Origin: Verrucomicrobiota bacterium
Lineage (GTDB): Bacteria > Verrucomicrobiota > Verrucomicrobiia > Chthoniobacterales > UBA10450
NCBI GenBank assembly: GCA_046734635.1
Contig: JBKPRQ010000155.1
Coordinates: 1 to 57,252, forward strand
Direction of reading: 5' to 3'
DNA length: 57,252 bases
The notes beneath the pieces were generated by a model. It was not told the origin of the DNA. It was given only the letters and a program-made list of their open reading frames with translations, and did not search any database. Positions within the stretch are counted from its first letter, which is position 1. Each line of letters starts with the position of its first letter. Positions 12,278-47,507 of the stretch are shown here, one piece after another. Both the position numbers and the translations under genes were made by a program.

Positions 12278-13168
12278 TTACGAAAAACCGTATCGTGCGG
12301 GCCAATCTCTGGCTGGCCCGCCGAGCCGCGCTGCGCAGGTCTTCAGTTCCTTCTTGAAGAACTTGGCGAGATGCGATCGTACACTATTTGTAAGGGGAAG
12401 CTTTTCCATCTTGGTCCAACTGTTGTAATCCGCCGGCAATCGGCTACTGGGCTTGTCTGGATCAGCGCCCAGGAAACGAACAATCGAGCGGCGCAATTCA
12501 GCCGGATTGCTTTGCAGGTCGTCAAAGAAATAAACGCGAAACTGCTCTGGACGGACATGACGTTTCCATCGCGCGACGACAGCACTCGGATACGAACGCA
12601 AGAGCATTCCCCGACGGAGCAAATTCCGATCGAGTTCGTCGATATTCGTTGGGTCAAACGCCTCGATCTGTCGGTAATGCACTTCCATCGACAAATGCGA
12701 CCAGACTCGCTCAACTGGATCGCGCGCCAGAAAGATCACCTTTAAGTTTGGGAAGTATCCGACGATCTGCCTGATGATTTCATCATTCAGCGTTGAGTAA
12801 TTTGGCGAGATATCGCCTGAAAGAAGCGATGCCTTGGGCTCAAACAATCTGCCGTAATTCTCGAGGTCGATACCCGGTTCAGCGCTAAGTTTCTTGAGCC
12901 CTTCCAGAAATCGAAGGTCGCGCTCGTCTCTGCGGCGCGGACCACCTCCCCGTTGAACTCTGCTCAGTTGATCGAAGTAATGCAATTCCTTTACCGGAGG
13001 CATCCAGAAATCCGGGTGCGAATCGAGCTGCTGATAAAGCCAGGTTGTTCCTGCCTTGTGAGCGCCGACGCACAAAAAATCAGGCCGCGCATTGCTCGCA
13101 GGAGCTTCGTTTCTGTCCTTATACCTGCCGTCGGTGCGCCGCGTCTTGAATGGCCAATCCCATTTCAC
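12278..13168 (-). CDS. Sulfotransferase family protein (paralogue 1)
   Basis: PAPS-binding 5'-PSB-like motif FLCVGAHKAGTTWLYQQL and 3'-PB-like VIFLARDPVERVWS; 296 aa. Confidence 0.8.
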   Translation of the reverse strand: MKWDWPFKTRRTDGRYKDRNEAPASNARPDFLCVGAHKAGTTWLYQQLDSHPDFWMPPVKELHYFDQLSRVQRGGGPRRRDERDLRFLEGLKKLSAEPGIDLENYGRLFEPKASLLSGDISPNYSTLNDEIIRQIVGYFPNLKVIFLARDPVERVWSHLSMEVHYRQIEAFDPTNIDELDRNLLRRGMLLRSYPSAVVARWKRHVRPEQFRVYFFDDLQSNPAELRRSIVRFLGADPDKPSSRLPADYNSWTKMEKLPLTNSVRSHLAKFFKKELKTCAARLGGPARDWPARYGFS

Positions 13169-13254
13169 GTCTCATTGTTTCCTCTTTGGAATTCATGGTA
13201 AGCGCACCGCGTTGCAATGCATCCCAGCGGTGACCGCAGCGCGCCGTCGCTACG

Positions 13255-14271
13255 TCAGGCGACCCAATCAACCCAGAAAAAGATATCCAAGTCATCCATC
13301 AGCTGCACAGCAAGAACGAGCAACGAAAAACCATATCGCGCAGGCCAGTGTTTCGCCGGGCCGCCGAGTTCTTCGGCGCAGGCTTTCAATTCCTGTTCAA
13401 AAAACTGTGCGACCCGTGATCTTACCTTATCGGTAAGTTGAAGCTTTTCCTTTCCGGCATCCCAGTTCTGCTCTGCCGTGCATCGACCGCTTGGTTTGTC
13501 CGGGTCTGCGCCTAGAAACAGGAGGATCGAACGACGTAGATCCGCCGGATTCTTTTTCAAATCATCGAAGAAATAGATGCGGAAGAGCGCTGGACGAACG
13601 TAGCGTTTCCAGCGCGCGACGATTTGACTGGGATACGACCGCAGGAACACTCCGGGGTTCAGTAAATTTCGTATTACCGCATCTGCATCGGTAGCATCGA
13701 AAGGGCCGATATTTCCCAGGCGTACGCCCATTGAAAGCTGCGACCACGCTCTCTCAACAGGATCACGGGCCAAAAAAATCACTTTCAAATTAGGAAAACG
13801 AACCACGATCTGTTCGATAATCTCATCACTCAGCATGGAGTAAGCTGGCGTGATGTCACCGGAAAGGAGCGCGCCCTTGGATTCGAACAGCCGCGAATAG
13901 GCGTCTAAGTCAATATGTGACTGCGTACCGAGCGCCGTCATTTTCTGCAGAAAGCACTGATCGCGCGCGTCCTTGCAACGGGGAGGGCTGCCCCGCTTGA
14001 CCTTGCTCAGCGCGTCGAAGTAATGCAGTTCCTTTACGGGAGGCATCCAGAAATCCGCGTGCCAGCTCAGTTGATAATAAAGCCACGAGGTCCCACCTTT
14101 CTGAGCTCCGACGCATAAGAAATCAGGGTGCGGATCGCAATTTGCATGGCCACCGTTTAAGTTAATGTGGTCGTTACCGACGCGAGATTTGAATGGCAAG
14201 GGCAGGGACACGGGCGCATTATTTTCCATTGCCCGGTCAAAAGGCAAGACCGGAACACCGGGCAGGCTCAC
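13255..14271 (-). CDS. Sulfotransferase family protein (paralogue 2)
   Basis: FLCVGAQKGGTSWLYYQL and VIFLARDPVERAWS. It is collinear and highly similar to 12278-13168 over the whole catalytic domain. It has extra N-terminal residues and a roughly 22-aa C-terminal tail after the shared ...WPARYGFS end. Confidence 0.8.
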   Translation of the reverse strand: MSLPGVPVLPFDRAMENNAPVSLPLPFKSRVGNDHINLNGGHANCDPHPDFLCVGAQKGGTSWLYYQLSWHADFWMPPVKELHYFDALSKVKRGSPPRCKDARDQCFLQKMTALGTQSHIDLDAYSRLFESKGALLSGDITPAYSMLSDEIIEQIVVRFPNLKVIFLARDPVERAWSQLSMGVRLGNIGPFDATDADAVIRNLLNPGVFLRSYPSQIVARWKRYVRPALFRIYFFDDLKKNPADLRRSILLFLGADPDKPSGRCTAEQNWDAGKEKLQLTDKVRSRVAQFFEQELKACAEELGGPAKHWPARYGFSLLVLAVQLMDDLDIFFWVDWVA

Positions 14272-24336: not shown

Positions 24337-25971
24337 GTGTCCGATACTCAAGAACGGCTGTTTGCTTTTCTTGAATCGCCTGAGTCGTATCCTCACAAGC
24401 CAACGGAAGTTCGCGCAATTCAGACCCACATCTCATTGGTCTTCATTGCGTCTCCGTTTGTCTTCAAAGTGAAGAAACCGGTGAACCTGGGATTTCTCGA
24501 TTTCAGCACGCTTGAGAAGCGGCACCACTTTTGCCAGCGCGAGATTGCACTGAATCGACGACTCGCTCCTGAAATCTACCTGGGAGTTGTCCCGATCCAC
24601 AAAACAACTTCTGGTTTTTCCTTTAACGACGAAGGCGAGATCGTCGAATACGCCGTTAAAATGAAGGAGCTACCGAATGGTTTCTTCTTAAACGAATTAC
24701 TCGAGAAACATTTGGTCGGCGAAAAAGAAATCAATCGGGTGATCTCTGTCCTGCATCGATTCTATCAGGCCGAGACGGCGACGCCGCAGATCGAGAAGTG
24801 GGGTACGCCCGAAAAGTTAAAGATCAGCACCGACGAGAATTTTGCACAGGTCGAGTCTTTCATAGGCAAGACAATTTCATCTGTCGCTTTCGAGGCGATT
24901 CGCCATTACACGAACCAGTTCTACAAGCTGAATGAGGGCTTGTTCCATCAACGCATACAGCAACATCGGATTCTCGATTGCCATGGCGATTTGCGTCTCG
25001 ACCATGTTCATCTCGCTCCGAAAGAGACCAGCATCTTCGATTGCATTGAGTTTAACGATCGGTTTCGCTTCATCGATATCGCCAACGATCTCGCCTTTCT
25101 GGCGATGGATTTCGATTTCAAAGGCCGAAGCGACCTGGGAAACCTGTTTCTCCGAAATGCTGCACGCCAACTAGATGACCTTGGAATGCTAAAGATCACG
25201 AATTTCTATAAGTGCTATCGCGCCTTTGTGCGTGGCAAGGTCGAAAGCATCCAGGCTGCAGAAAAAGAAACGAAAAATCGGCAGGAGCACGAAAGACAAG
25301 CCGCCCGCTATTTCCGCCTCGCACTTCGATACGCCGTCGCCGGTTCGGAGCCATTGATTGTTGTCGTGATGGGTCGGATCGGCACGGGCAAGAGCACTAT
25401 CGCGCAACGACTCGCCGCTAAGTTGGATTGGCCGTCCTTTTCTTCCGATGAGATTCGCAAAACACTCGCCGGCATTTCGGTTACTAAACGAGCGGTGGCA
25501 GAGGTGCGCGACAAGATCTATTCAGCGCGAATGACGCAACGAACTTACAGGAAGCTTGTTAGAGACGGCCTCGCTGCGATTGGCTGTAACCGAGGGCGTC
25601 GACTCCCGCCGCTTCAACCTCATGACGGCGTCATCCTCGACGCTACATTCTCCACACACGCGCTTCGTAAATTTCTCCGTGACGAATGCAAGAAAGCGAA
25701 GGTGCCAATTCAGTTCATCGAACTCGAGGTCGATTCTAAAGAAATCAAAAAGCGGCTGAAAGATCGCGATAAAAAAACGGCTGAGACGTCCGACGCACGT
25801 CTCGAAGACTTCGAGAAATTGAGCGCTGCCTATGAGCCGCCATCTGAACTCGAGCCTGACTTGATCAGCATTTCGACTGCGAACACTATCTCCGACGCTG
25901 TGAAAACAATCCTCCTGTGCCTGGCCGGAAAGCAAGCAATCGTGGCCATTGACGCCATCGGATCTGGCTAG
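24337..25971 (+). CDS. Bifunctional aminoglycoside-phosphotransferase-like kinase / P-loop (AAA_33-type) ATP-binding protein
   Basis: N-terminal IQTHISLVFIASPFVFKVKKPVNLGFLDFSTLEKRHHFCQREIALNRRLAP, an APH-like HGDLRLDHV, and a C-terminal Walker A VVMGRIGTGKST. Confidence 0.75.
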   Translation: MSDTQERLFAFLESPESYPHKPTEVRAIQTHISLVFIASPFVFKVKKPVNLGFLDFSTLEKRHHFCQREIALNRRLAPEIYLGVVPIHKTTSGFSFNDEGEIVEYAVKMKELPNGFFLNELLEKHLVGEKEINRVISVLHRFYQAETATPQIEKWGTPEKLKISTDENFAQVESFIGKTISSVAFEAIRHYTNQFYKLNEGLFHQRIQQHRILDCHGDLRLDHVHLAPKETSIFDCIEFNDRFRFIDIANDLAFLAMDFDFKGRSDLGNLFLRNAARQLDDLGMLKITNFYKCYRAFVRGKVESIQAAEKETKNRQEHERQAARYFRLALRYAVAGSEPLIVVVMGRIGTGKSTIAQRLAAKLDWPSFSSDEIRKTLAGISVTKRAVAEVRDKIYSARMTQRTYRKLVRDGLAAIGCNRGRRLPPLQPHDGVILDATFSTHALRKFLRDECKKAKVPIQFIELEVDSKEIKKRLKDRDKKTAETSDARLEDFEKLSAAYEPPSELEPDLISISTANTISDAVKTILLCLAGKQAIVAIDAIGSG

Positions 25972-42944: not shown

Positions 42945-43679
42945 TCACTCGGGCACCCATTCGCCGCGAACTGGCGGACCGGGCGGGGGACGCCAACGTC
43001 TGTGGGAGGGATCGTAAAATGGTTGACGTGGTTGCGGTAACAACCGAAGCGCGGCGAGCGTTTGCAGATCAAGCCGGCCTGTCACCGGAAGTTGTGTCCG
43101 TGCTTGATACGCTCGCAGGGAAAACTCCATTGCCGGCCCGTAGATTCCATTGACCTCTTCCTGATAAAGTCCCCGCCGCGCCAGCGCGATTTGAGCAGAA
43201 ACAATCACATTGTGTTGCACCTCGGGCGGGGCAGCTTCAAAAGGCGTCTGCGCGAGGACTCCGGCCGCAGAAGTAGGTGGGGCGACCGGGTTGGAGGGAT
43301 ACACTTGCTGCTCTTGCGGCGCATTCGTAAAAGGCTCGACAGGTGGCGGCGTTACGTTCGTTCCTCCGATTGGCGATTGTTCGGCAGGTTTGGATAAAGC
43401 GGGGCCGGGTGACGCAGGCTTTGCCGCCGTTTGGGGAGAAGAAGAGTTAACTCCCAGCGACTGAATCGTCTCACCGTTGAGCTGACCGTTGACCTGCAGT
43501 CCACTGCGAATTTGATAACGACGAATGGCCGCCGTTAAATCCGAACTCGTCTGACCGGTGATCTCACCGTAGTAAAAGCCCTGGTCTTTCAAGGCTTGCT
43601 GCACTTTTTCAATCATCTGGTCCGCTTGCGCCAGCATAAGCGAGCCAAGGAAGATCAGCGCAGCGATCCTGGCCTTCAT
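42945..43679 (-). CDS. Secreted protein with two peptidoglycan-binding (PG_binding_1) domains
   Basis: Signal peptide, LKDQGFYYGEITGQTSSDLTAAIRRYQIRSGLQVNGQLNGETIQSLG, a Pro-rich linker, then LARRGLYQEEVNGIYGPAMEFSLRAYQARTQLPVTGRLDLQTLAAL. Confidence 0.8.
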   Translation of the reverse strand: MKARIAALIFLGSLMLAQADQMIEKVQQALKDQGFYYGEITGQTSSDLTAAIRRYQIRSGLQVNGQLNGETIQSLGVNSSSPQTAAKPASPGPALSKPAEQSPIGGTNVTPPPVEPFTNAPQEQQVYPSNPVAPPTSAAGVLAQTPFEAAPPEVQHNVIVSAQIALARRGLYQEEVNGIYGPAMEFSLRAYQARTQLPVTGRLDLQTLAALRLLPQPRQPFYDPSHRRWRPPPGPPVRGEWVPE

Positions 43680-43711
43680 TGTGATGTTATTTTGACGCCC
43701 TTGTTTTCCGT

Positions 43712-44512
43712 CTATTCAGCGCTCTCCCGAATTGTTACCGCCAACGTTGGTTTCCGCTGATTCATCGCATCGCGATAACGCAAAATACCGTCAGCAACGG
43801 CTGCGGCGATCTGGTCGCGGTAATCTTCGCTTACAAGTTTGGAAATATCTTCCTTGTTGGTCAGAAATCCTCCTTCGATCAAGACGGCAGGGGAAGTCAC
43901 GTTTGCGATCACAAAAAATTGTCCGGGCTGTGTGCCACGATTATTGGCCCGTGTGCGTGCGACCAGAGCTTCTTGAATGAATCCAGCAAGGCTTTGACTT
44001 TCAGGATTCGGCGACTCGGAGAGTGGTCGCCATAAAAAAGGCAGCCACGAAGCGACAGAAGACCCGGTGGTGATTTGATGCGAGGCATAGTAAGTCTCCA
44101 CCCCGCTGGCGACCGGTTTGTTGTCTTCGTTGAAATGAATGCTGACGAAAATGCAATTTCTGATGCGATTAGCGAACGCCGCGCGATCTGCCAGCGAGAC
44201 ATAAGTATCTCCCAGGCGAGTCATCAATGTCGCGATTCCTTCGGAGTCGAGTAATCGATCAATTCGTCGTGCCACGTCGAGAGCGAGATCTTTTTCGAGT
44301 AAGCCTCCGCACATTGCACCGGAATCCTGCCCTCCGTGCCCGGGATCAAGAACGACTACTGCAAACGGACCGGCTGCAGCCGCGGGCTGCGCTGGTCTCG
44401 GCTCTGTGGCAGCCGACTTAGCTCTTTCCGTCTGGTCGAACTGCATCCAGACGAAAGACGCCATCATCACCAACAAGCCAGAGAGAGCCAGGATATTCCG
44501 AAGCGATTTCAC
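43712..44512 (-). CDS. N-acetylmuramoyl-L-alanine amidase (Amidase_3, AmiC-like)
   Basis: VVLDPGHGGQDSGA, SIHFN, and VLIEGGFLTNKED; signal peptide present. Confidence 0.85.
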   Translation of the reverse strand: MKSLRNILALSGLLVMMASFVWMQFDQTERAKSAATEPRPAQPAAAAGPFAVVVLDPGHGGQDSGAMCGGLLEKDLALDVARRIDRLLDSEGIATLMTRLGDTYVSLADRAAFANRIRNCIFVSIHFNEDNKPVASGVETYYASHQITTGSSVASWLPFLWRPLSESPNPESQSLAGFIQEALVARTRANNRGTQPGQFFVIANVTSPAVLIEGGFLTNKEDISKLVSEDYRDQIAAAVADGILRYRDAMNQRKPTLAVTIRESAE

Positions 44513-44546
44513 TTGTGACCTCCGGACAATGATTTTTTCCCATATC

Positions 44547-45326
44547 TTAGTCGCGGATCAAGGGACGTAATTCATTGTCTGACAGCGAACGATAGCGAAT
44601 TGCGCGGCCGGCGTCACGCTCAAGCAATGCCCCTTCGATTGCAGCATTGGCGAGCTGTTCCTGTAGATGTTTTCTTACGGCCGCGCGCTCTGGTGGTTCC
44701 TTTGTATCGGTGGTTTGTAAAGTCATATGCCCGATGCTCCATGCATCGAGCGCGGAGTTGAACGCTGTCTCGAGGTTGGCGCCCGTCGCGTGCTGCGTCG
44801 CAAGAAATGTTTCCATCAGCTCTCTCGACTGCTGTGTCCCGCTGAGTGCAGCGAAGTCCCGCCGCGCTTGAGCGTGCGTTGCGCCGTTGGTCGCAATCTC
44901 ACCGTCGTATTCTACTCGTAAAAACAAATCCCCCTCGGGATGTTGTGCGACCTCCGCAAAGAGCATTCGCGCTAGGTATGGTGGCCCATAAATCTGTTCA
45001 AATGCGGTCTTCATGACCGGACTGAGCGAGTAATGCACGAGCCGTCGCAACGAAACATCCGCCGCGGAACGGGTGAAGCCTTCAGTGCTCGCCAGTTCGA
45101 TCGCCGCCATTCGCAGTCGTTCGATGTCGCCGGGATGACCAATCGCACCCATCCCAATCCGGTCGTAGATCTCAAAAATCTTCTGGCGCGTCTGGCCGAG
45201 CGTAACAAACAAAATACCGTCGCGAAAACCCAGCGCTGCGATTGGACTGCCCGGAGCGAGCTGCGCTTCGATATACTCGCGACGATTCGCGATCGCTTCG
45301 ACCCAACGATACGGTTCTTCAATCAT
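44547..45326 (-). CDS. prcA: 20S proteasome alpha subunit (bacterial PrcA type)
   Basis: MIEEPYRWVEAIANRREYIEAQLAPGSPIAALGFRDGILFVTLG...KIFEIYDRIGMGAIGHPGD... is collinear with actinobacterial PrcA as I recall it (PY..E.A...R.E...IA...VAL.Y..GVLFV...KI.E.YDR.GFAAAG). Its start overlaps the prcB stop (ATGA). Confidence 0.8.
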   Translation of the reverse strand: MIEEPYRWVEAIANRREYIEAQLAPGSPIAALGFRDGILFVTLGQTRQKIFEIYDRIGMGAIGHPGDIERLRMAAIELASTEGFTRSAADVSLRRLVHYSLSPVMKTAFEQIYGPPYLARMLFAEVAQHPEGDLFLRVEYDGEIATNGATHAQARRDFAALSGTQQSRELMETFLATQHATGANLETAFNSALDAWSIGHMTLQTTDTKEPPERAAVRKHLQEQLANAAIEGALLERDAGRAIRYRSLSDNELRPLIRD

Positions 45327-46147
45327 GCAACCGTTTCCTTGAACACCGCGGCAATTTTGCTCTCCGGCAACGTTGTGATTCCTTCGCGCGATACAATCTT
45401 GATAAGCGGATAAATCTTTCCACTGCGATCGACGCCGCCTGTCGATGTGTCGGATTCCGCAGCGGTATCCAATGCGCGCAACGCGATAGATACCGCTTCG
45501 TCATCGCCCAATTCAAGTAGCGGCTTTGCTCCCCAATTGTTTTCGTAATAAAGAATGCCGCGCACCGCCGGCGATCCCGACCCCGTCGCTGCGTAATCAG
45601 TTACTTCAAATTGTGCGCCCATTGCGTCGTAAAAATAAAGACGCGCCTCGGGCTTGGGATGAGAATCGTATGTCGCAAAGATCGGCACCACGACCCCCAC
45701 GCCCTGCATGACGAACCCGAAATTGTCGCGCAACAGCTTGGATAGGGCGCGCACTTTTCCGTCTACGCTCATTTCCTGCAGTTGTGTTCGCCGAAAGTAT
45801 TGGAATGAGTGTTCGAGCACGCGCGCCATTTCCCACGCCGTTGCCGGCACACCAGCAATCGCCATGATCGAGTGCCGATCAATCTCCAAAACCTTGTCGG
45901 CGCGATCATACACGACCGTGTTACCAGCTGTCGCCCGACGGTCGCCGGCGACGAGGACGCCGCCTGAAAATTTGAAAGCGAGAATCGTGGTTGCTTCCGT
46001 TGGCTGCCAGCTCTTTTGGGAAGTCCCTGCCTGGGGTAGAGGATTTACAGCCGCCGGAGCGAGCAGGCCTTCGCGGCGCAGCAGCGCAGGGAAATCGCCG
46101 GCTGCGCCAGAGAAATTCTGGTCAAACGCCACCTGGGAGCGCTCCAT
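45323..46147 (-). CDS. prcB: 20S proteasome beta subunit with propeptide (PrcB type)
   Basis: A 52-aa propeptide, then the mature N-terminus TTILAFKFSGGVLVAGDRRATAGNTVVYDRADKV, giving Thr1, Asp17 and Lys33. TGSGS lies further on. The track start at 46381 is rejected; Met at 46147 overlaps the stop of the upstream small ORF (TAATG). Confidence 0.85.
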   Translation of the reverse strand: MERSQVAFDQNFSGAAGDFPALLRREGLLAPAAVNPLPQAGTSQKSWQPTEATTILAFKFSGGVLVAGDRRATAGNTVVYDRADKVLEIDRHSIMAIAGVPATAWEMARVLEHSFQYFRRTQLQEMSVDGKVRALSKLLRDNFGFVMQGVGVVVPIFATYDSHPKPEARLYFYDAMGAQFEVTDYAATGSGSPAVRGILYYENNWGAKPLLELGDDEAVSIALRALDTAAESDTSTGGVDRSGKIYPLIKIVSREGITTLPESKIAAVFKETVA

Positions 46148-46323
46148 TATTGGCCGGTGCGCTGGCGATAGCGCTTGGATTGATTTGGATCCACCTTGCG
46201 CATTTTTTTTAAGAGATCCTTCGTGTCCGGCCGTGAAACGTCCGGTGAACGTGGACCTCCACCATCGCCTTGTTTTGGACCCCAGGGAGCCGGTTCTGCA
46301 GGTTTTTGAATGCGCTCGGGCAT
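46147..46323 (-). CDS. Pup/UBact-like small protein modifier candidate (58 aa)
   Basis: MPERIQKPAEPAPWGPKQGDGGGPRSPDVSRPDTKDLLKKMRKVDPNQSKRYRQRTGQ*. The N-terminal half looks disordered, the C-terminal half is a basic helix, and it ends in Gly-Gln. It lies immediately 5' of prcB and is coupled to it. It is hidden inside a 130-aa track ORF. Confidence 0.6.
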   Translation of the reverse strand: MPERIQKPAEPAPWGPKQGDGGGPRSPDVSRPDTKDLLKKMRKVDPNQSKRYRQRTGQ

Positions 46324-46473
46324 AAAAAAATCTAAGAGCAAATATTGGAAAGGCAAGCTGTCGCGTCGCATGATTCGCCAACTCGTTACAATTAACACCG
46401 GATTTCCGTTCAACGATTCAATGTGGCGAAGGCGCTTGCCAGACAAATCCGCTGATGGCAAAGTTTTGCCCCG

Positions 46474-46953
46474 ATGAAGCTCGCATTGATTTTTTGTGCG
46501 ACGGTCCTTTTCGGATTGCTTTGCCCGATTTCGGCTCAAACGGAAGCGCCGAAATCTCGGAAATCAGATCATGCCACTCAACTTGAAGCGTTGGCGAAAA
46601 AGATAGACGAACAGAATGCGAAGATTGATGCGCTTTCTCAGGAGATTCTCAAGCTGGAACAGCAAATCGCACACATGCGACCGGGTGTAATGATCGGAGA
46701 AAGCACGCCGTCGGCAGCCAGTCCTGCCGCTGCGGTCGCCGCCGGATCTTCACCACATCCGGCTGGCGCAAATACGCACATCGTCTCACGCGGTGAGACA
46801 CTCACTTCGATCGCGAAAATGTACAAGGTGACTGTGGATGAATTGCAGGCGGCCAATCACATCGAAGATGGCCGTAAGCTGCAGGCGGGACAGACCATCA
46901 TGATCCCCGCTGCGTCGCCGGCGGCCTCCAGTTCGCCGTCGCCAACAGAATAG
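46474..46953 (+). CDS. Secreted LysM domain protein
   Basis: Signal peptide, a short coiled coil, an Ala/Pro/Ser linker, then LysM: HIVSRGETLTSIAKMYKVTVDELQAANHIEDGRKLQAGQTIMIP. Confidence 0.8.
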   Translation: MKLALIFCATVLFGLLCPISAQTEAPKSRKSDHATQLEALAKKIDEQNAKIDALSQEILKLEQQIAHMRPGVMIGESTPSAASPAAAVAAGSSPHPAGANTHIVSRGETLTSIAKMYKVTVDELQAANHIEDGRKLQAGQTIMIPAASPAASSSPSPTE

Positions 46954-46958
46954 AGCTC

Positions 46959-47507
46959 GTGAATCCAAGCTGGTTTCTGCGCAAACACGAAGATGGAAGC
47001 ACCTTTGGCCCGGTGCGTTTTGATCAAATCGCGCGCTGGGCTGCAGCTGCGCAAATCGCGCCCCACGATACGCTTTCTAACGATCGGCAGAGCTGGGTGA
47101 AAGCGCCGATGCTGCCTCAGCTCGGTATGGACTGGTTGGTTGAACTCACGAGCGAGCATTATTACGGACCGACAACCCTGGGCGCGCTCCAGGAATTTAT
47201 CCGGCTCGGCGAAATCGATAGCGAGACCGAGGTCATCAACACCCGCAATGGCGCGCGTTGCAAGATTCAGGAAATGCCGCAGCTCTGGGAAAGCGGAGAA
47301 GCAGATGCCCTGGATGCCCAGACTGAAATTCAACTGGGCGATCCTATCGGACCAACAGTGGCCAGAATGTCGATTCGTCTCCGGGAGCAGATTCGTGATC
47401 TCGAACGGAGCTTGGAAGAAGAGCGCCGCGCTCTGATCGAAGCGGAGCGACGATACGCTGAGCTAAAAGAAAAATACGAAGCGGCTATTCAGGGTGCCGG
47501 AACCTGA
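46959..47507 (+). CDS. GYF_2 (DUF4339)-like repeat protein
   Basis: GTG start. Two W...GP......I......G.I......V.......W......P.L modules (WFLRKHEDGSTFGPVRFDQI...; WLVELTSEHYYGPTTLGALQEFIRLGEI...) and a C-terminal coiled coil. Confidence 0.6.
   Translation: MNPSWFLRKHEDGSTFGPVRFDQIARWAAAAQIAPHDTLSNDRQSWVKAPMLPQLGMDWLVELTSEHYYGPTTLGALQEFIRLGEIDSETEVINTRNGARCKIQEMPQLWESGEADALDAQTEIQLGDPIGPTVARMSIRLREQIRDLERSLEEERRALIEAERRYAELKEKYEAAIQGAGT

What the first reader, a model, noticed from the sequence alone, without database searches (positions are those of the whole stretch)
46147..46323. Hidden 58-codon ORF ending in ...RYRQRTGQ directly upstream of prcB: Pup/UBact-like modifier candidate
The ORF track shows a 130-aa ORF (46147-46539) and an over-extended prcB (to 46381) overlapping in different frames. 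Starting at Met 46323 gives MPERIQKPAEPAPWGPKQGDGGGPRSPDVSRPDTKDLLKKMRKVDPNQSKRYRQRTGQ. The N-terminal half is Pro/Gly-rich and probably disordered, the C-terminal half is a basic helix, and it ends in Gly-Gln. Its TAA stop shares one base with the ATG of the prcB propeptide (TAATG at 46145-46149). Position, size, disorder and the G-Q terminus mirror pup in actinobacterial pup-prcB-prcA operons. The K(R)YRQR(T/S)G(E/Q) tail matches my recollection of the UBact family described by Lehmann, Udasin, Livneh and Ciechanover (2017). A C-terminal Gln would require deamidation by a Dop-like enzyme before ligation.
Basis: partly seen in the sequence, partly recalled or inferred. Interest (0 to 1): 0.8.

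Follow-up and report, generated by a model that had tools for sequence, protein, structure and literature searches.

The report
UBact tag gene upstream of proteasome
This is a real 58-codon gene for UBact, the ubiquitin-like tag of Gram-negative bacteria thought to mark proteins for degradation, sitting directly in front of the proteasome genes of a soil Verrucomicrobium; the family has been described since 2017 and public databases already name this protein, so the find is correct but ordinary.

Summary
The ORF 46323->46147 (minus strand) encodes MPER...RYRQRTGQ, and its TAA stop overlaps the prcB ATG (TAATG). It scores far above the curated cut-offs of both UBact models: Pfam PF20513, 82 bits against 27.8; NCBIfam NF033388, 84.5 bits against 35.

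Across 80 related Chthoniobacterales / Candidatus Udaeobacter genomes:
- The ATG is conserved in every copy.
- Variation falls on third codon positions, with pN/pS of 0.10.
- The competing prcB-extension frame carries stop codons in 61 of 71 relatives.

Near-identical proteins are already deposited as "ubiquitin-like protein UBact [Candidatus Udaeobacter sp.]". The feature is therefore already known.

The one unusual point is the gene layout. No Dop, PafA or Mpa gene lies in the 57-kb window or within 10 kb of UBact in the 80 relatives. In this order Mpa and Dop form a separate two-gene locus, found in 83 loci, none of which carries UBact, prcBA or PafA. UBact-prcB-prcA instead runs in one direction with a peptidoglycan amidase and a peptidoglycan-binding protein.

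I could not show that this genome has Dop, PafA or Mpa. No paper I found reports an experiment showing UBact conjugation.

The parts
46147..46323 (-). UBact coding sequence: 58 codons plus a TAA stop. The protein is MPER...RYRQRTGQ. Residues 1-33 are Pro/Gly-rich with no predicted structure; residues 34-56 are basic and predicted to form two helices.
   Evidence: - Pfam PF20513: 82.1 bits against a cut-off of 27.8.
- NCBIfam NF033388 (equivalog): 84.5 bits against 35.
- pN/pS 0.10 with third-position variation across 71 orthologues.
- ATG conserved in all 81 sequences compared; C-terminal Q in 75 and E in 6.
- AlphaFold2 on the single sequence: helices at 34-42 and 46-56, no secondary structure in 1-33, mean pLDDT 68.6.
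45323..46147 (-). prcB, the 20S proteasome beta subunit (274 aa) with a 52-residue propeptide. The catalytic Thr1 is residue 53 (TTILAFKF). The ATG overlaps the UBact stop by one base.
   Evidence: - Pfam Proteasome, E 2.6e-29.
- Best NCBIfam model is TIGR03690, bacterial 20S beta, at 170 bits; this is below its equivalog cut-off of 191.9.
- Best solved relative is M. tuberculosis PrcB. The mature N-terminus TTIVALKY aligns with TTILAFKF.
- Asp17 and Lys33 were read directly from the sequence.
- The stop-start overlap (TAATG or TGATG) is present in 59 of 81 sequences.
44547..45326 (-). prcA, the 20S proteasome alpha subunit (259 aa). Its ATG overlaps the prcB stop.
   Evidence: - Pfam Proteasome, 24.2 bits against a cut-off of 22.4.
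- Best NCBIfam model is TIGR03691, bacterial 20S alpha, at 77.6 bits; this is below its cut-off of 139.
- Present downstream of prcB in 77 of 80 related loci.
46324..46473 (.). Divergent intergenic region between UBact and the LysM gene. On the minus strand it holds a conserved block: TTGCCT (46356-46351), a 16-nt spacer, TAGATT (46334-46329), then TTTTT and the ATG. This is a possible sigma-70-type promoter placed so that the mRNA would start at or next to the ATG.
   Evidence: - The rest of the upstream region is poorly conserved and full of indels.
- TTGnnn, 15-18 nt, TAnnnT ending 4-7 nt before the ATG occurs in 76 of 80 sequences. Shuffled controls give 0.8 on average and 5 at most.
- No Shine-Dalgarno-like motif in any of the 81 sequences.
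- The tool's stricter 9-of-12 promoter scan did not report this site.
- Promoter function is inferred, not shown.
43712..44512 (-). Amidase_3 (N-acetylmuramoyl-L-alanine amidase, 266 aa, hydrophobic N-terminus), 34 nt downstream of prcA and in the same direction. It is a conserved neighbour and possibly in the same operon.
   Evidence: - NCBIfam amidase models, E 1e-34 to 1e-21.
- Present in the same direction at the same offset in 64 related loci, out of 68 that have enough downstream sequence.
- Co-transcription is inferred only from the short gaps.
42945..43679 (-). Protein with two peptidoglycan-binding (PG_binding_1-type) stretches (244 aa), 32 nt downstream of the amidase. It is the last gene of the run of five genes in one direction.
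   Evidence: - NCBIfam hits over the PG-binding repeats.
- Pfam PF01471 on the orthologues.
- Present in the same direction in 68 related loci.

Best explanation
The ORF is the UBact gene of a Candidatus Udaeobacter-like member of the Chthoniobacterales (Verrucomicrobiota).

Shown here:
- It is a real gene under strong purifying selection.
- It starts at the conserved ATG 46323.
- It belongs to the UBact family.
- It is translationally coupled, through a one-base stop/start overlap, to prcB and prcA. These encode a 20S proteasome whose beta subunit has an intact Thr1/Asp17/Lys33 active site.

Inferred by analogy with the actinobacterial Pup system (Striebel 2009, Burns 2010 and Guth 2011, as summarised in PMC7947786):
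- The C-terminal Gln is deamidated to Glu by a Dop-type enzyme.
- A PafA-type ligase joins that Glu side-chain carboxylate to lysines of target proteins.
- An Mpa-type AAA ATPase binds the helical, basic C-terminal half of UBact and threads the unstructured N-terminal half, followed by the substrate, into the 20S core.
- Dop also removes the tag.

In this lineage the genes are split. UBact-prcB-prcA is one locus. Mpa-Dop is a separate two-gene locus in the same order. The location of PafA is unknown.
For: - Family membership: both far above the curated cut-offs.
- Already annotated: near-identical proteins (98-100% identity) are deposited as UBact in Udaeobacter MAGs and JGI metagenomes.
- Selection and frame.
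- Start codon.
- Synteny: UBact-prcB in 80 of 80 and prcA in 77 of 80 related genomes.
- Proteasome active site.
- Family tail: [RK]Y[RK]QR[ST]G[EQ], with Y, Q and G invariant across 30 diverse members. Both Q and E termini occur, the same pattern as Pup (PMC2588565).
- Shape: unstructured N-terminal half and two C-terminal helices. Iyer et al. describe a 'bihelical unit' for Pup.
- Complete clusters exist elsewhere: Mpa-Dop-UBact-prcB and UBact-prcB-prcA-PafA around a UBact 71% identical to this one (L090/L091), and Dop-UBact-prcB...PafA in L088.
- Partners in the same order: Chthoniobacteraceae have Mpa-Dop operons. Their Dop passes the TIGR03688 equivalog cut-off (500 against 492 bits) and their Mpa best matches TIGR03689.
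- Literature: Brewer et al. state that Ca. [quoted passage not shown]
Against: - No Pup-ligase-family or Mpa gene is in the 57-kb window or within 10 kb of UBact in 80 related genomes.
- None of the 83 Chthoniobacterales-type Dop loci carries UBact, prcBA or a second Pup-ligase paralogue.
- No PafA was seen anywhere in this order.
- I could not place a Dop/Mpa locus and a split UBact locus in the same genome.
- None of the top 120 Dop hits carries a Udaeobacter name. Those lists stop at about 71% identity, so this says little.
- UBact shows no detectable sequence similarity to Pup. It is strongly basic (14 Lys/Arg against 7 Asp/Glu, counted from the sequence), whereas Pup is acidic (my own knowledge). 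The analogy is therefore functional, not demonstrated.
- None of the papers I searched and read reports an experiment showing UBact conjugation.
Confidence: 0.8

Rival explanations
1. UBact in this lineage is a non-covalent partner of the proteasome, such as an assembly factor, gate regulator or adaptor, and is not a conjugated tag. This could follow if the ligase genes were lost during the genome reduction of Udaeobacter.
For: - No Dop, PafA or Mpa within 46 kb on one side and 11 kb on the other in the window, or within 10 kb in 80 relatives.
- No Udaeobacter-named Dop among the best 120 hits of two searches.
- Udaeobacter has a reduced genome (10.1101/053942).
- UBact conjugation is not shown experimentally in any paper I found.
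Against: - The last eight residues, RYRQRTGQ, are the commonest tail among the homologues collected. The terminal G[EQ] is kept, with Q in 75 and E in 6 of 81 sequences. That pattern is what a ligase/deamidase substrate requires and is hard to explain otherwise.
- Mpa-Dop operons are common in the same order, at the same G+C content, in the same kinds of soil metagenomes.
- Brewer et al. report all proteasome components in Ca. U. copiosus.
Confidence: 0.1
2. Conjugation occurs but with a single Pup-ligase-family enzyme. The Dop-type protein encoded next to Mpa would both deamidate and ligate or deligate, and there would be no separate PafA in Chthoniobacterales.
For: - 0 of 83 Dop loci and 0 of 85 UBact loci of this group contain a second Pup-ligase paralogue.
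- In the canonical loci L088 and L091, PafA follows prcA. Here that position is taken by an amidase.
- PMC7947786 reports single Dop/PafA homologues in some Planctomycetes and examines how substitutions can turn the hydrolase into a ligase.
Against: - Only 10 kb on each side of each locus was inspected, so a third unlinked locus for PafA is the simpler explanation.
- The Chthoniobacteraceae enzyme scores as Dop (500 bits, above the cut-off) and clearly below the PafA cut-off (403 against 551 bits).
Confidence: 0.07
3. The small ORF is not a gene. On this view the real products are an N-terminally extended PrcB starting at TTG 46381, or the 130-aa ORF starting at TTG 46539.
For: - Both longer ORFs exist in the window.
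- Gene callers extended the UBact gene upstream in 118 of the 120 best database clusters, giving 66-102 aa products.
Against: - The prcB-extension frame has stops in 61 of 71 orthologues and pN/pS of 2.1.
- The extensions called upstream of MPER are unrelated in sequence between homologues.
- In-frame stops lie within 5 codons of the ATG in 17 of 79 sequences, and 22 have no alternative start codon at all.
- The 130-aa ORF would run into the divergent LysM gene, which starts at 46474.
Confidence: 0.01

Closest known systems
UBact (Pfam PF20513, NCBIfam NF033388; Lehmann, Udasin, Livneh and Ciechanover 2017, BBRC 483:946) in its canonical Mpa-Dop-UBact-PrcB-PrcA-PafA cluster
   Same: - Same protein family by both curated models.
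- Same length class and the same RYRQRTG[EQ] tail.
- Same position directly upstream of prcB-prcA.
- Canonical clusters were seen here in L088 and L090/L091.
   Different: - The Dop gene that normally precedes UBact and the PafA gene that normally follows prcA are missing from the locus, as is Mpa.
- In Chthoniobacterales, Mpa-Dop is a separate locus.
- UBact-prcBA is followed by a peptidoglycan amidase and a PG-binding protein.
Pup (prokaryotic ubiquitin-like protein) of Actinobacteria, in pup-prcB-prcA operons
   Same: - Small protein directly upstream of prcB.
- Terminal G[EQ], with Gln forms needing Dop deamidation.
- Unstructured N-terminal part with a helix-forming C-terminal part (PMC2588565).
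- The associated enzymes (Dop, PafA, Mpa) are homologous.
   Different: - No detectable sequence similarity: no Pup model hit at E <= 1 and no Pup chain in the PDB at E <= 10.
- The tail is TGQ, not GGQ.
- UBact is strongly basic, whereas Pup is acidic (my own knowledge).
[quoted passage not shown] That is not the case here.
Single Dop/PafA-homologue systems of Planctomycetes (PMC7947786; PMC2588565)
   Same: Pup-ligase-family genes occur outside Actinobacteria, in the PVC group, with a non-canonical gene organisation.
   Different: - According to PMC2588565, the planctomycete Rhodopirellula lacks the link to proteasome genes.
- Here the 20S genes are tightly coupled to the modifier, and it is the ligase-family genes that are unlinked.

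Membership tests
UBact (PF20513 / NF033388) | Sequence matches the curated family HMMs above their cut-offs | tested here: met
   Pfam: 82.1 bits against 27.8, E 2.4e-23, profile positions 2-43 of 43. NCBIfam equivalog: 84.5 bits against 35, profile positions 2-54 of 54.
UBact (PF20513 / NF033388) | Short protein (about 50-70 aa) ending in [RK]Y[RK]QR[ST]G[EQ] | tested here: met
   58 aa ending in RYRQRTGQ. This is the commonest tail among the homologues collected. Y52, Q54 and G57 are invariant in an alignment of 30 diverse members.
UBact (PF20513 / NF033388) | Encoded directly upstream of the 20S genes prcB and prcA | tested here: met
   The stop overlaps the prcB ATG. prcB and prcA were identified. 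The same order is found in 80 (prcB) and 77 (prcA) of 80 relatives.
UBact (PF20513 / NF033388) | Gene cluster also holds Dop, PafA (Pup-ligase family) and an Mpa-type AAA ATPase. This was the context used in the original description; it is not part of the HMM definitions. | tested here: not met
   None in the 57-kb window (tblastn). None within 10 kb in 80 relatives. Mpa-Dop occurs as an unlinked operon in the same order.
UBact (PF20513 / NF033388) | Dop, PafA and Mpa present somewhere in the same genome | not testable with these tools
   Only the window is available. Attempts to link loci through contig lengths, names and shared flanking genes failed. The only support is indirect.
UBact (PF20513 / NF033388) | Occurs in Gram-negative phyla (Verrucomicrobia, Nitrospirae and others) rather than Actinobacteria | tested here: met
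   The closest genomes are Candidatus Udaeobacter, Chthoniobacterales and Verrucomicrobiota MAGs.
UBact (PF20513 / NF033388) | Covalent attachment through the C-terminal Glu to substrate lysines | not testable with these tools
   This needs mass spectrometry or reconstitution in vitro. No experimental report turned up in the paper searches.
Pup (actinobacterial prokaryotic ubiquitin-like protein) | Sequence similarity to the Pup family | tested here: not met
   UBact was the only Pfam hit at E <= 1. A 30-sequence UBact profile finds no Pup chain in the PDB at E <= 10.
Pup (actinobacterial prokaryotic ubiquitin-like protein) | C-terminal G[EQ] signature (PMC2588565) | tested here: met
   The protein ends in Gly-Gln. 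75 of 81 sequences end in Q and 6 in E.
Pup (actinobacterial prokaryotic ubiquitin-like protein) | Modifier gene adjacent to a PafA-family gene (PMC2588565: 'invariably') | tested here: not met

The most novel reading that the evidence does not exclude
In Chthoniobacterales, including the globally abundant soil genus Candidatus Udaeobacter, the UBact-proteasome module has been uncoupled from its ligase genes. It has instead become fixed in a five-gene run in one direction with an exported peptidoglycan amidase and a peptidoglycan-binding protein, with LysM and GYF-domain genes placed divergently upstream.

The most novel reading my evidence does not exclude has two parts. First, no PafA exists in this order, so UBact would either be handled by the Dop-type enzyme alone or act without conjugation. 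Second, the module would be functionally tied to cell-wall turnover.
Probability: 0.08. Interest if true: 0.6.

Novelty: already known. Interest (0 to 1): 0.2.

Why it matters
UBact is the proposed Gram-negative counterpart of Pup. I found no experimental test of it in the papers searched, so any well-defined locus has some value. This one shows three modest things.
- The gene is easy to miss or mis-call. 118 of the 120 best database clusters carry false N-terminal extensions, and in the window the gene is hidden inside two longer overlapping ORFs.
- One of the most abundant soil bacterial lineages carries it under strong constraint.
- The rule that the modifier gene sits next to a ligase-family gene does not hold in Chthoniobacterales.

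None of this changes what the gene is, and the organism is uncultured, so the window does not make the open question of whether UBact is conjugated any easier to test.

Tried and rejected
**Searching for the partner genes**
- I scanned 50 window ORFs against Pfam. I also ran tblastn with complete Mpa and Dop sequences and with PafA fragments taken from canonical UBact loci. Nothing was found. The 544-aa ORF at 24337-25971 has only a kinase-type P-loop domain (AAA_33), so it is not Mpa.

**Trying to put Dop and the split UBact locus in one genome**
- Two protein searches with verrucomicrobial Dop sequences.
- Comparison of contig lengths between Dop hits and UBact loci.
- A look-up of cluster members, which returned no names or accessions.
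- A metagenome scan for Dop loci.
- An all-against-all comparison of flanking genes, which found no shared genes.
- A G+C comparison, which gave the same distributions but proves nothing.
- None of these made a link. NfeD genes lie near Mpa-Dop in three loci and in the window, but they are only about 25% identical and are therefore paralogues, not conserved gene order.

**Other dead ends**
- Extending the view beyond the window with the TatC protein returned only a 7.7-kb contig without DNA.
- The UBact paper itself is not in the library. Brewer et al. has no supplementary files held.
- The PDB profile search found no Pup and only chance hits at E of about 1.
- The antisense ORF 45708..46325 (+) and the other overlapping ORFs were rejected as non-coding on stops and pN/pS in relatives.

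Full report
**Observation**

On the minus strand an ATG at 46323 opens a 58-codon frame ending in TAA at 46149-46147. The last A of that stop is the first base of the prcB ATG, giving TAATG. The mechanical ORF list shows two longer ORFs: a 130-aa ORF from TTG 46539 and a prcB ORF extended to TTG 46381. They overlap in different frames and hide the short gene.

**What it is**

The peptide MPERIQKPAEPAPWGPKQGDGGGPRSPDVSRPDTKDLLKKMRKVDPNQSKRYRQRTGQ matches both curated UBact models.
- Pfam PF20513 (UBact): 82.1 bits against a cut-off of 27.8, E 2.4e-23.
- NCBIfam NF033388, the 'ubiquitin-like protein UBact' equivalog: 84.5 bits against 35, covering the whole profile.

No other Pfam family, Pup included, matches at E <= 1.

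The next two genes are the proteasome subunits. prcB (45323-46147) is the beta subunit. Its best models are TIGR03690 and M. tuberculosis PrcB, and the mature N-terminus TTILAFKF aligns with TTIVALKY. Asp17 and Lys33 are present. prcA (44547-45326) is the alpha subunit, best model TIGR03691.

A search of 5.8 billion proteins returned 483 homologues. The best 120 are 91-100% identical, and several are already named 'ubiquitin-like protein UBact', one of them from a Candidatus Udaeobacter MAG. At least 579 species-representative genomes encode a relative. The 80 closest are all Udaeobacter, Chthoniobacterales or Verrucomicrobiota MAGs. The nearest of these are 83-87% identical to the window in DNA.

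**Is the gene real, and is the start right?**

- In all 81 sequences (window plus 80 genomes) the frame begins with ATG at the same place and is 56-59 codons long. 75 end in Gln and 6 in Glu. 59 have the one-base stop/start overlap with prcB.
- Among 71 distinct 177-nt orthologues, variability at codon positions 1, 2 and 3 is 0.054, 0.048 and 0.362, and pN/pS is 0.10.
- The prcB-extension frame has stops in 61 of 71 and pN/pS of 2.1. All other frames are also broken by stops in some or most relatives.
- The N-terminal extensions that gene callers added in 118 of the 120 best clusters are unrelated in sequence.
- 17 of 79 sequences have an in-frame stop within five codons upstream of the ATG.
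- No Shine-Dalgarno-like motif precedes the ATG in any sequence. Instead, a TTGnnn, 15-18 nt, TAnnnT element ending 4-7 nt before the ATG is present in 76 of 80, against 0.8 on average in shuffles. This suggests, but does not prove, a leaderless transcript.

**Family features**

Thirty diverse members align over the whole length, with G23/P24, P32 and the tail Y-x-Q-R-x-G-[EQ] conserved. Both Q and E termini occur across the family. AlphaFold2 on the single sequence gives no structure for residues 1-33 and two helices at 34-42 and 46-56, with moderate confidence. Iyer et al. inferred the same general shape for Pup (PMC2588565). The protein is strongly basic: 14 Lys/Arg against 7 Asp/Glu, counted from the sequence.

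**Context: the one unusual point**

In the canonical arrangement the modifier lies between Dop and prcB, with Mpa upstream and PafA after prcA. I recovered that arrangement around more distant UBacts.
- L090/L091 (UBact 71% identical): Mpa-Dop-UBact-prcB on L090 and UBact-prcB-prcA-PafA on L091.
- L088: Dop-UBact-prcB...PafA.
- L086: Dop-UBact.

The window has no Pup-ligase-family gene and no Mpa-type ATPase anywhere in its 57 kb (Pfam scans; tblastn). None of the 80 related genomes has one within 10 kb of UBact. Instead, the following genes run in one direction:
- UBact-prcB-prcA;
- an Amidase_3 peptidoglycan amidase, after a 34-nt gap;
- a protein with PG_binding_1 repeats, after a 32-nt gap.

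This five-gene run is present in 64-68 of the 68 loci with enough downstream sequence. LysM and GYF_2 genes lie divergently upstream, and DUF3108, Skp and BamA lie beyond.

Conversely, verrucomicrobial Dop queries found many Chthoniobacteraceae and Chthoniobacter proteins. These pass the Dop equivalog cut-off and sit directly after an Mpa homologue. Across 83 such loci (0.89 Mb), Mpa is adjacent to Dop in 69. UBact, prcB, prcA or a second Pup-ligase paralogue occurs in none.

The system is therefore split in this order into at least two loci, and no PafA was located. This departs from Iyer et al.'s statement that the modifier is 'invariably' next to a PafA-family gene.

**What could not be shown**

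I could not demonstrate that the genome of this window, or any genome with the split UBact locus, also encodes Dop, PafA and Mpa. Linking by names, contig lengths, cluster members and shared flanking genes all failed. The indirect support is of three kinds:
- the near-invariant ligase-type tail under strong selection;
- matching G+C content between the UBact loci and the Dop loci, both of which include contigs from soil metagenomes;
- Brewer et al.'s statement that Ca. [quoted passage not shown]

**Mechanism**

Shown here: a real, constrained UBact gene, translationally coupled to an apparently active 20S proteasome.

Inferred by analogy with Pup: Dop deamidates the terminal Gln. PafA ligates the resulting Glu to substrate lysines. 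Mpa binds the helical C-terminal half and threads the disordered N-terminus into the 20S core. Dop also reverses the modification.

My confidence that this is the UBact gene is about 0.97. My confidence that it works as a conjugated degradation tag in this organism is about 0.75-0.8.

The rivals are a non-covalent proteasome partner after loss of the ligases (0.1), a single-enzyme system without PafA (0.07), and the view that the ORF is not a gene (about 0.01, refuted).

**Comparison and novelty**

The protein is a member of the UBact family by the family's sequence definition, its tail and its position upstream of prcBA. Clustering with Dop, PafA and Mpa was part of the context in the original description, and that is not met here. 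It is not a member of the Pup family by sequence, although it probably works like Pup.

The family was published in 2017 (reference in PMC5751360), is modelled in Pfam and NCBIfam, and this protein is already named in public records. The finding is therefore already known. Only the split gene organisation and the conserved cell-wall gene neighbours are worth a note.

**Verdict**

Novelty: already known. Interest: 0.2.

Noticed in passing
window 42945-46323 (-); L006-L085: UBact-prcB-prcA is followed, after gaps of 34 and 32 nt and in the same direction, by an Amidase_3 peptidoglycan amidase and a protein with PG_binding_1 repeats. The five-gene order is kept in 64-68 of 68 related loci, across prcB identities of 62-95%. 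Whether the cell-wall genes are co-transcribed with the proteasome genes, or functionally linked to them, is unknown.
   Followed up: partly
window 46474-46953 (+) and 46959-47507 (+); L089 6623-7153: A LysM protein and a GYF_2-domain protein are encoded divergently from UBact. The GYF_2 gene recurs there in 37 of 80 relatives. It lies directly next to a UBact only 63% identical in L089. From my own knowledge, eukaryotic GYF domains bind proline-rich peptides, and the N-terminal half of UBact is proline-rich. An interaction is pure speculation.
   Followed up: partly
window 46324-46360 (-): There is a conserved TTGCCT, 16 nt, TAGATT, TTTTT, ATG block and no Shine-Dalgarno motif. A TTGnnn, 15-18 nt, TAnnnT element ends 4-7 nt before the ATG in 76 of 80 sequences, against 0.8 in shuffles. 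This suggests a leaderless UBact mRNA.
   Followed up: partly
database clusters P0001-P0120: 118 of the 120 best UBact cluster representatives were called with spurious N-terminal extensions, giving 66-102 aa instead of 58. The extension sequences are unrelated to each other. This looks like a systematic start-codon error for this gene in metagenome annotation.
   Followed up: yes
L093 8301-11521; L094 4366-7575; L096-L175: In Chthoniobacteraceae-type contigs, Mpa and Dop form a stand-alone two-gene unit, adjacent in 69 of 83 loci, without UBact, prcBA or PafA. The Mpa homologues end in ...SHVI...GHVI or ...SPVA rather than the GQYL tail of M. tuberculosis Mpa (the GQYL motif is from my own knowledge). 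How they dock on the 20S core may therefore differ.
   Followed up: partly
window 44547-46147 (-): Both proteasome subunits score well below the NCBIfam equivalog cut-offs for bacterial 20S: beta 170 against 191.9 bits, alpha 77.6 against 139. The alpha subunit only just passes the Pfam Proteasome model (24.2 against 22.4 bits). These are divergent 20S subunits compared with the actinobacterial ones.
   Followed up: no
window 24337-25971 (+): This 544-aa ORF has a C-terminal kinase-type P-loop domain (AAA_33, residues 342-502). About 340 N-terminal residues match no Pfam family. It is not an AAA+ unfoldase.
   Followed up: no
window 12278-14271 (-): Two adjacent sulfotransferase-family genes (296 and 338 aa) lie next to a Na+/H+ exchanger gene. 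Their substrate is unknown.
   Followed up: no
window 45708-46325 (+): A 205-aa antisense ORF covers the UBact/prcB junction. In relatives, all three antisense frames across the UBact part of this ORF carry stop codons (in 19 to 69 of 71). Two of them have pN/pS of 1.8 and 2.7; the third shares wobble positions with UBact and has stops in 69 of 71. It is an artefact of the composition of the coding strand.
   Followed up: yes
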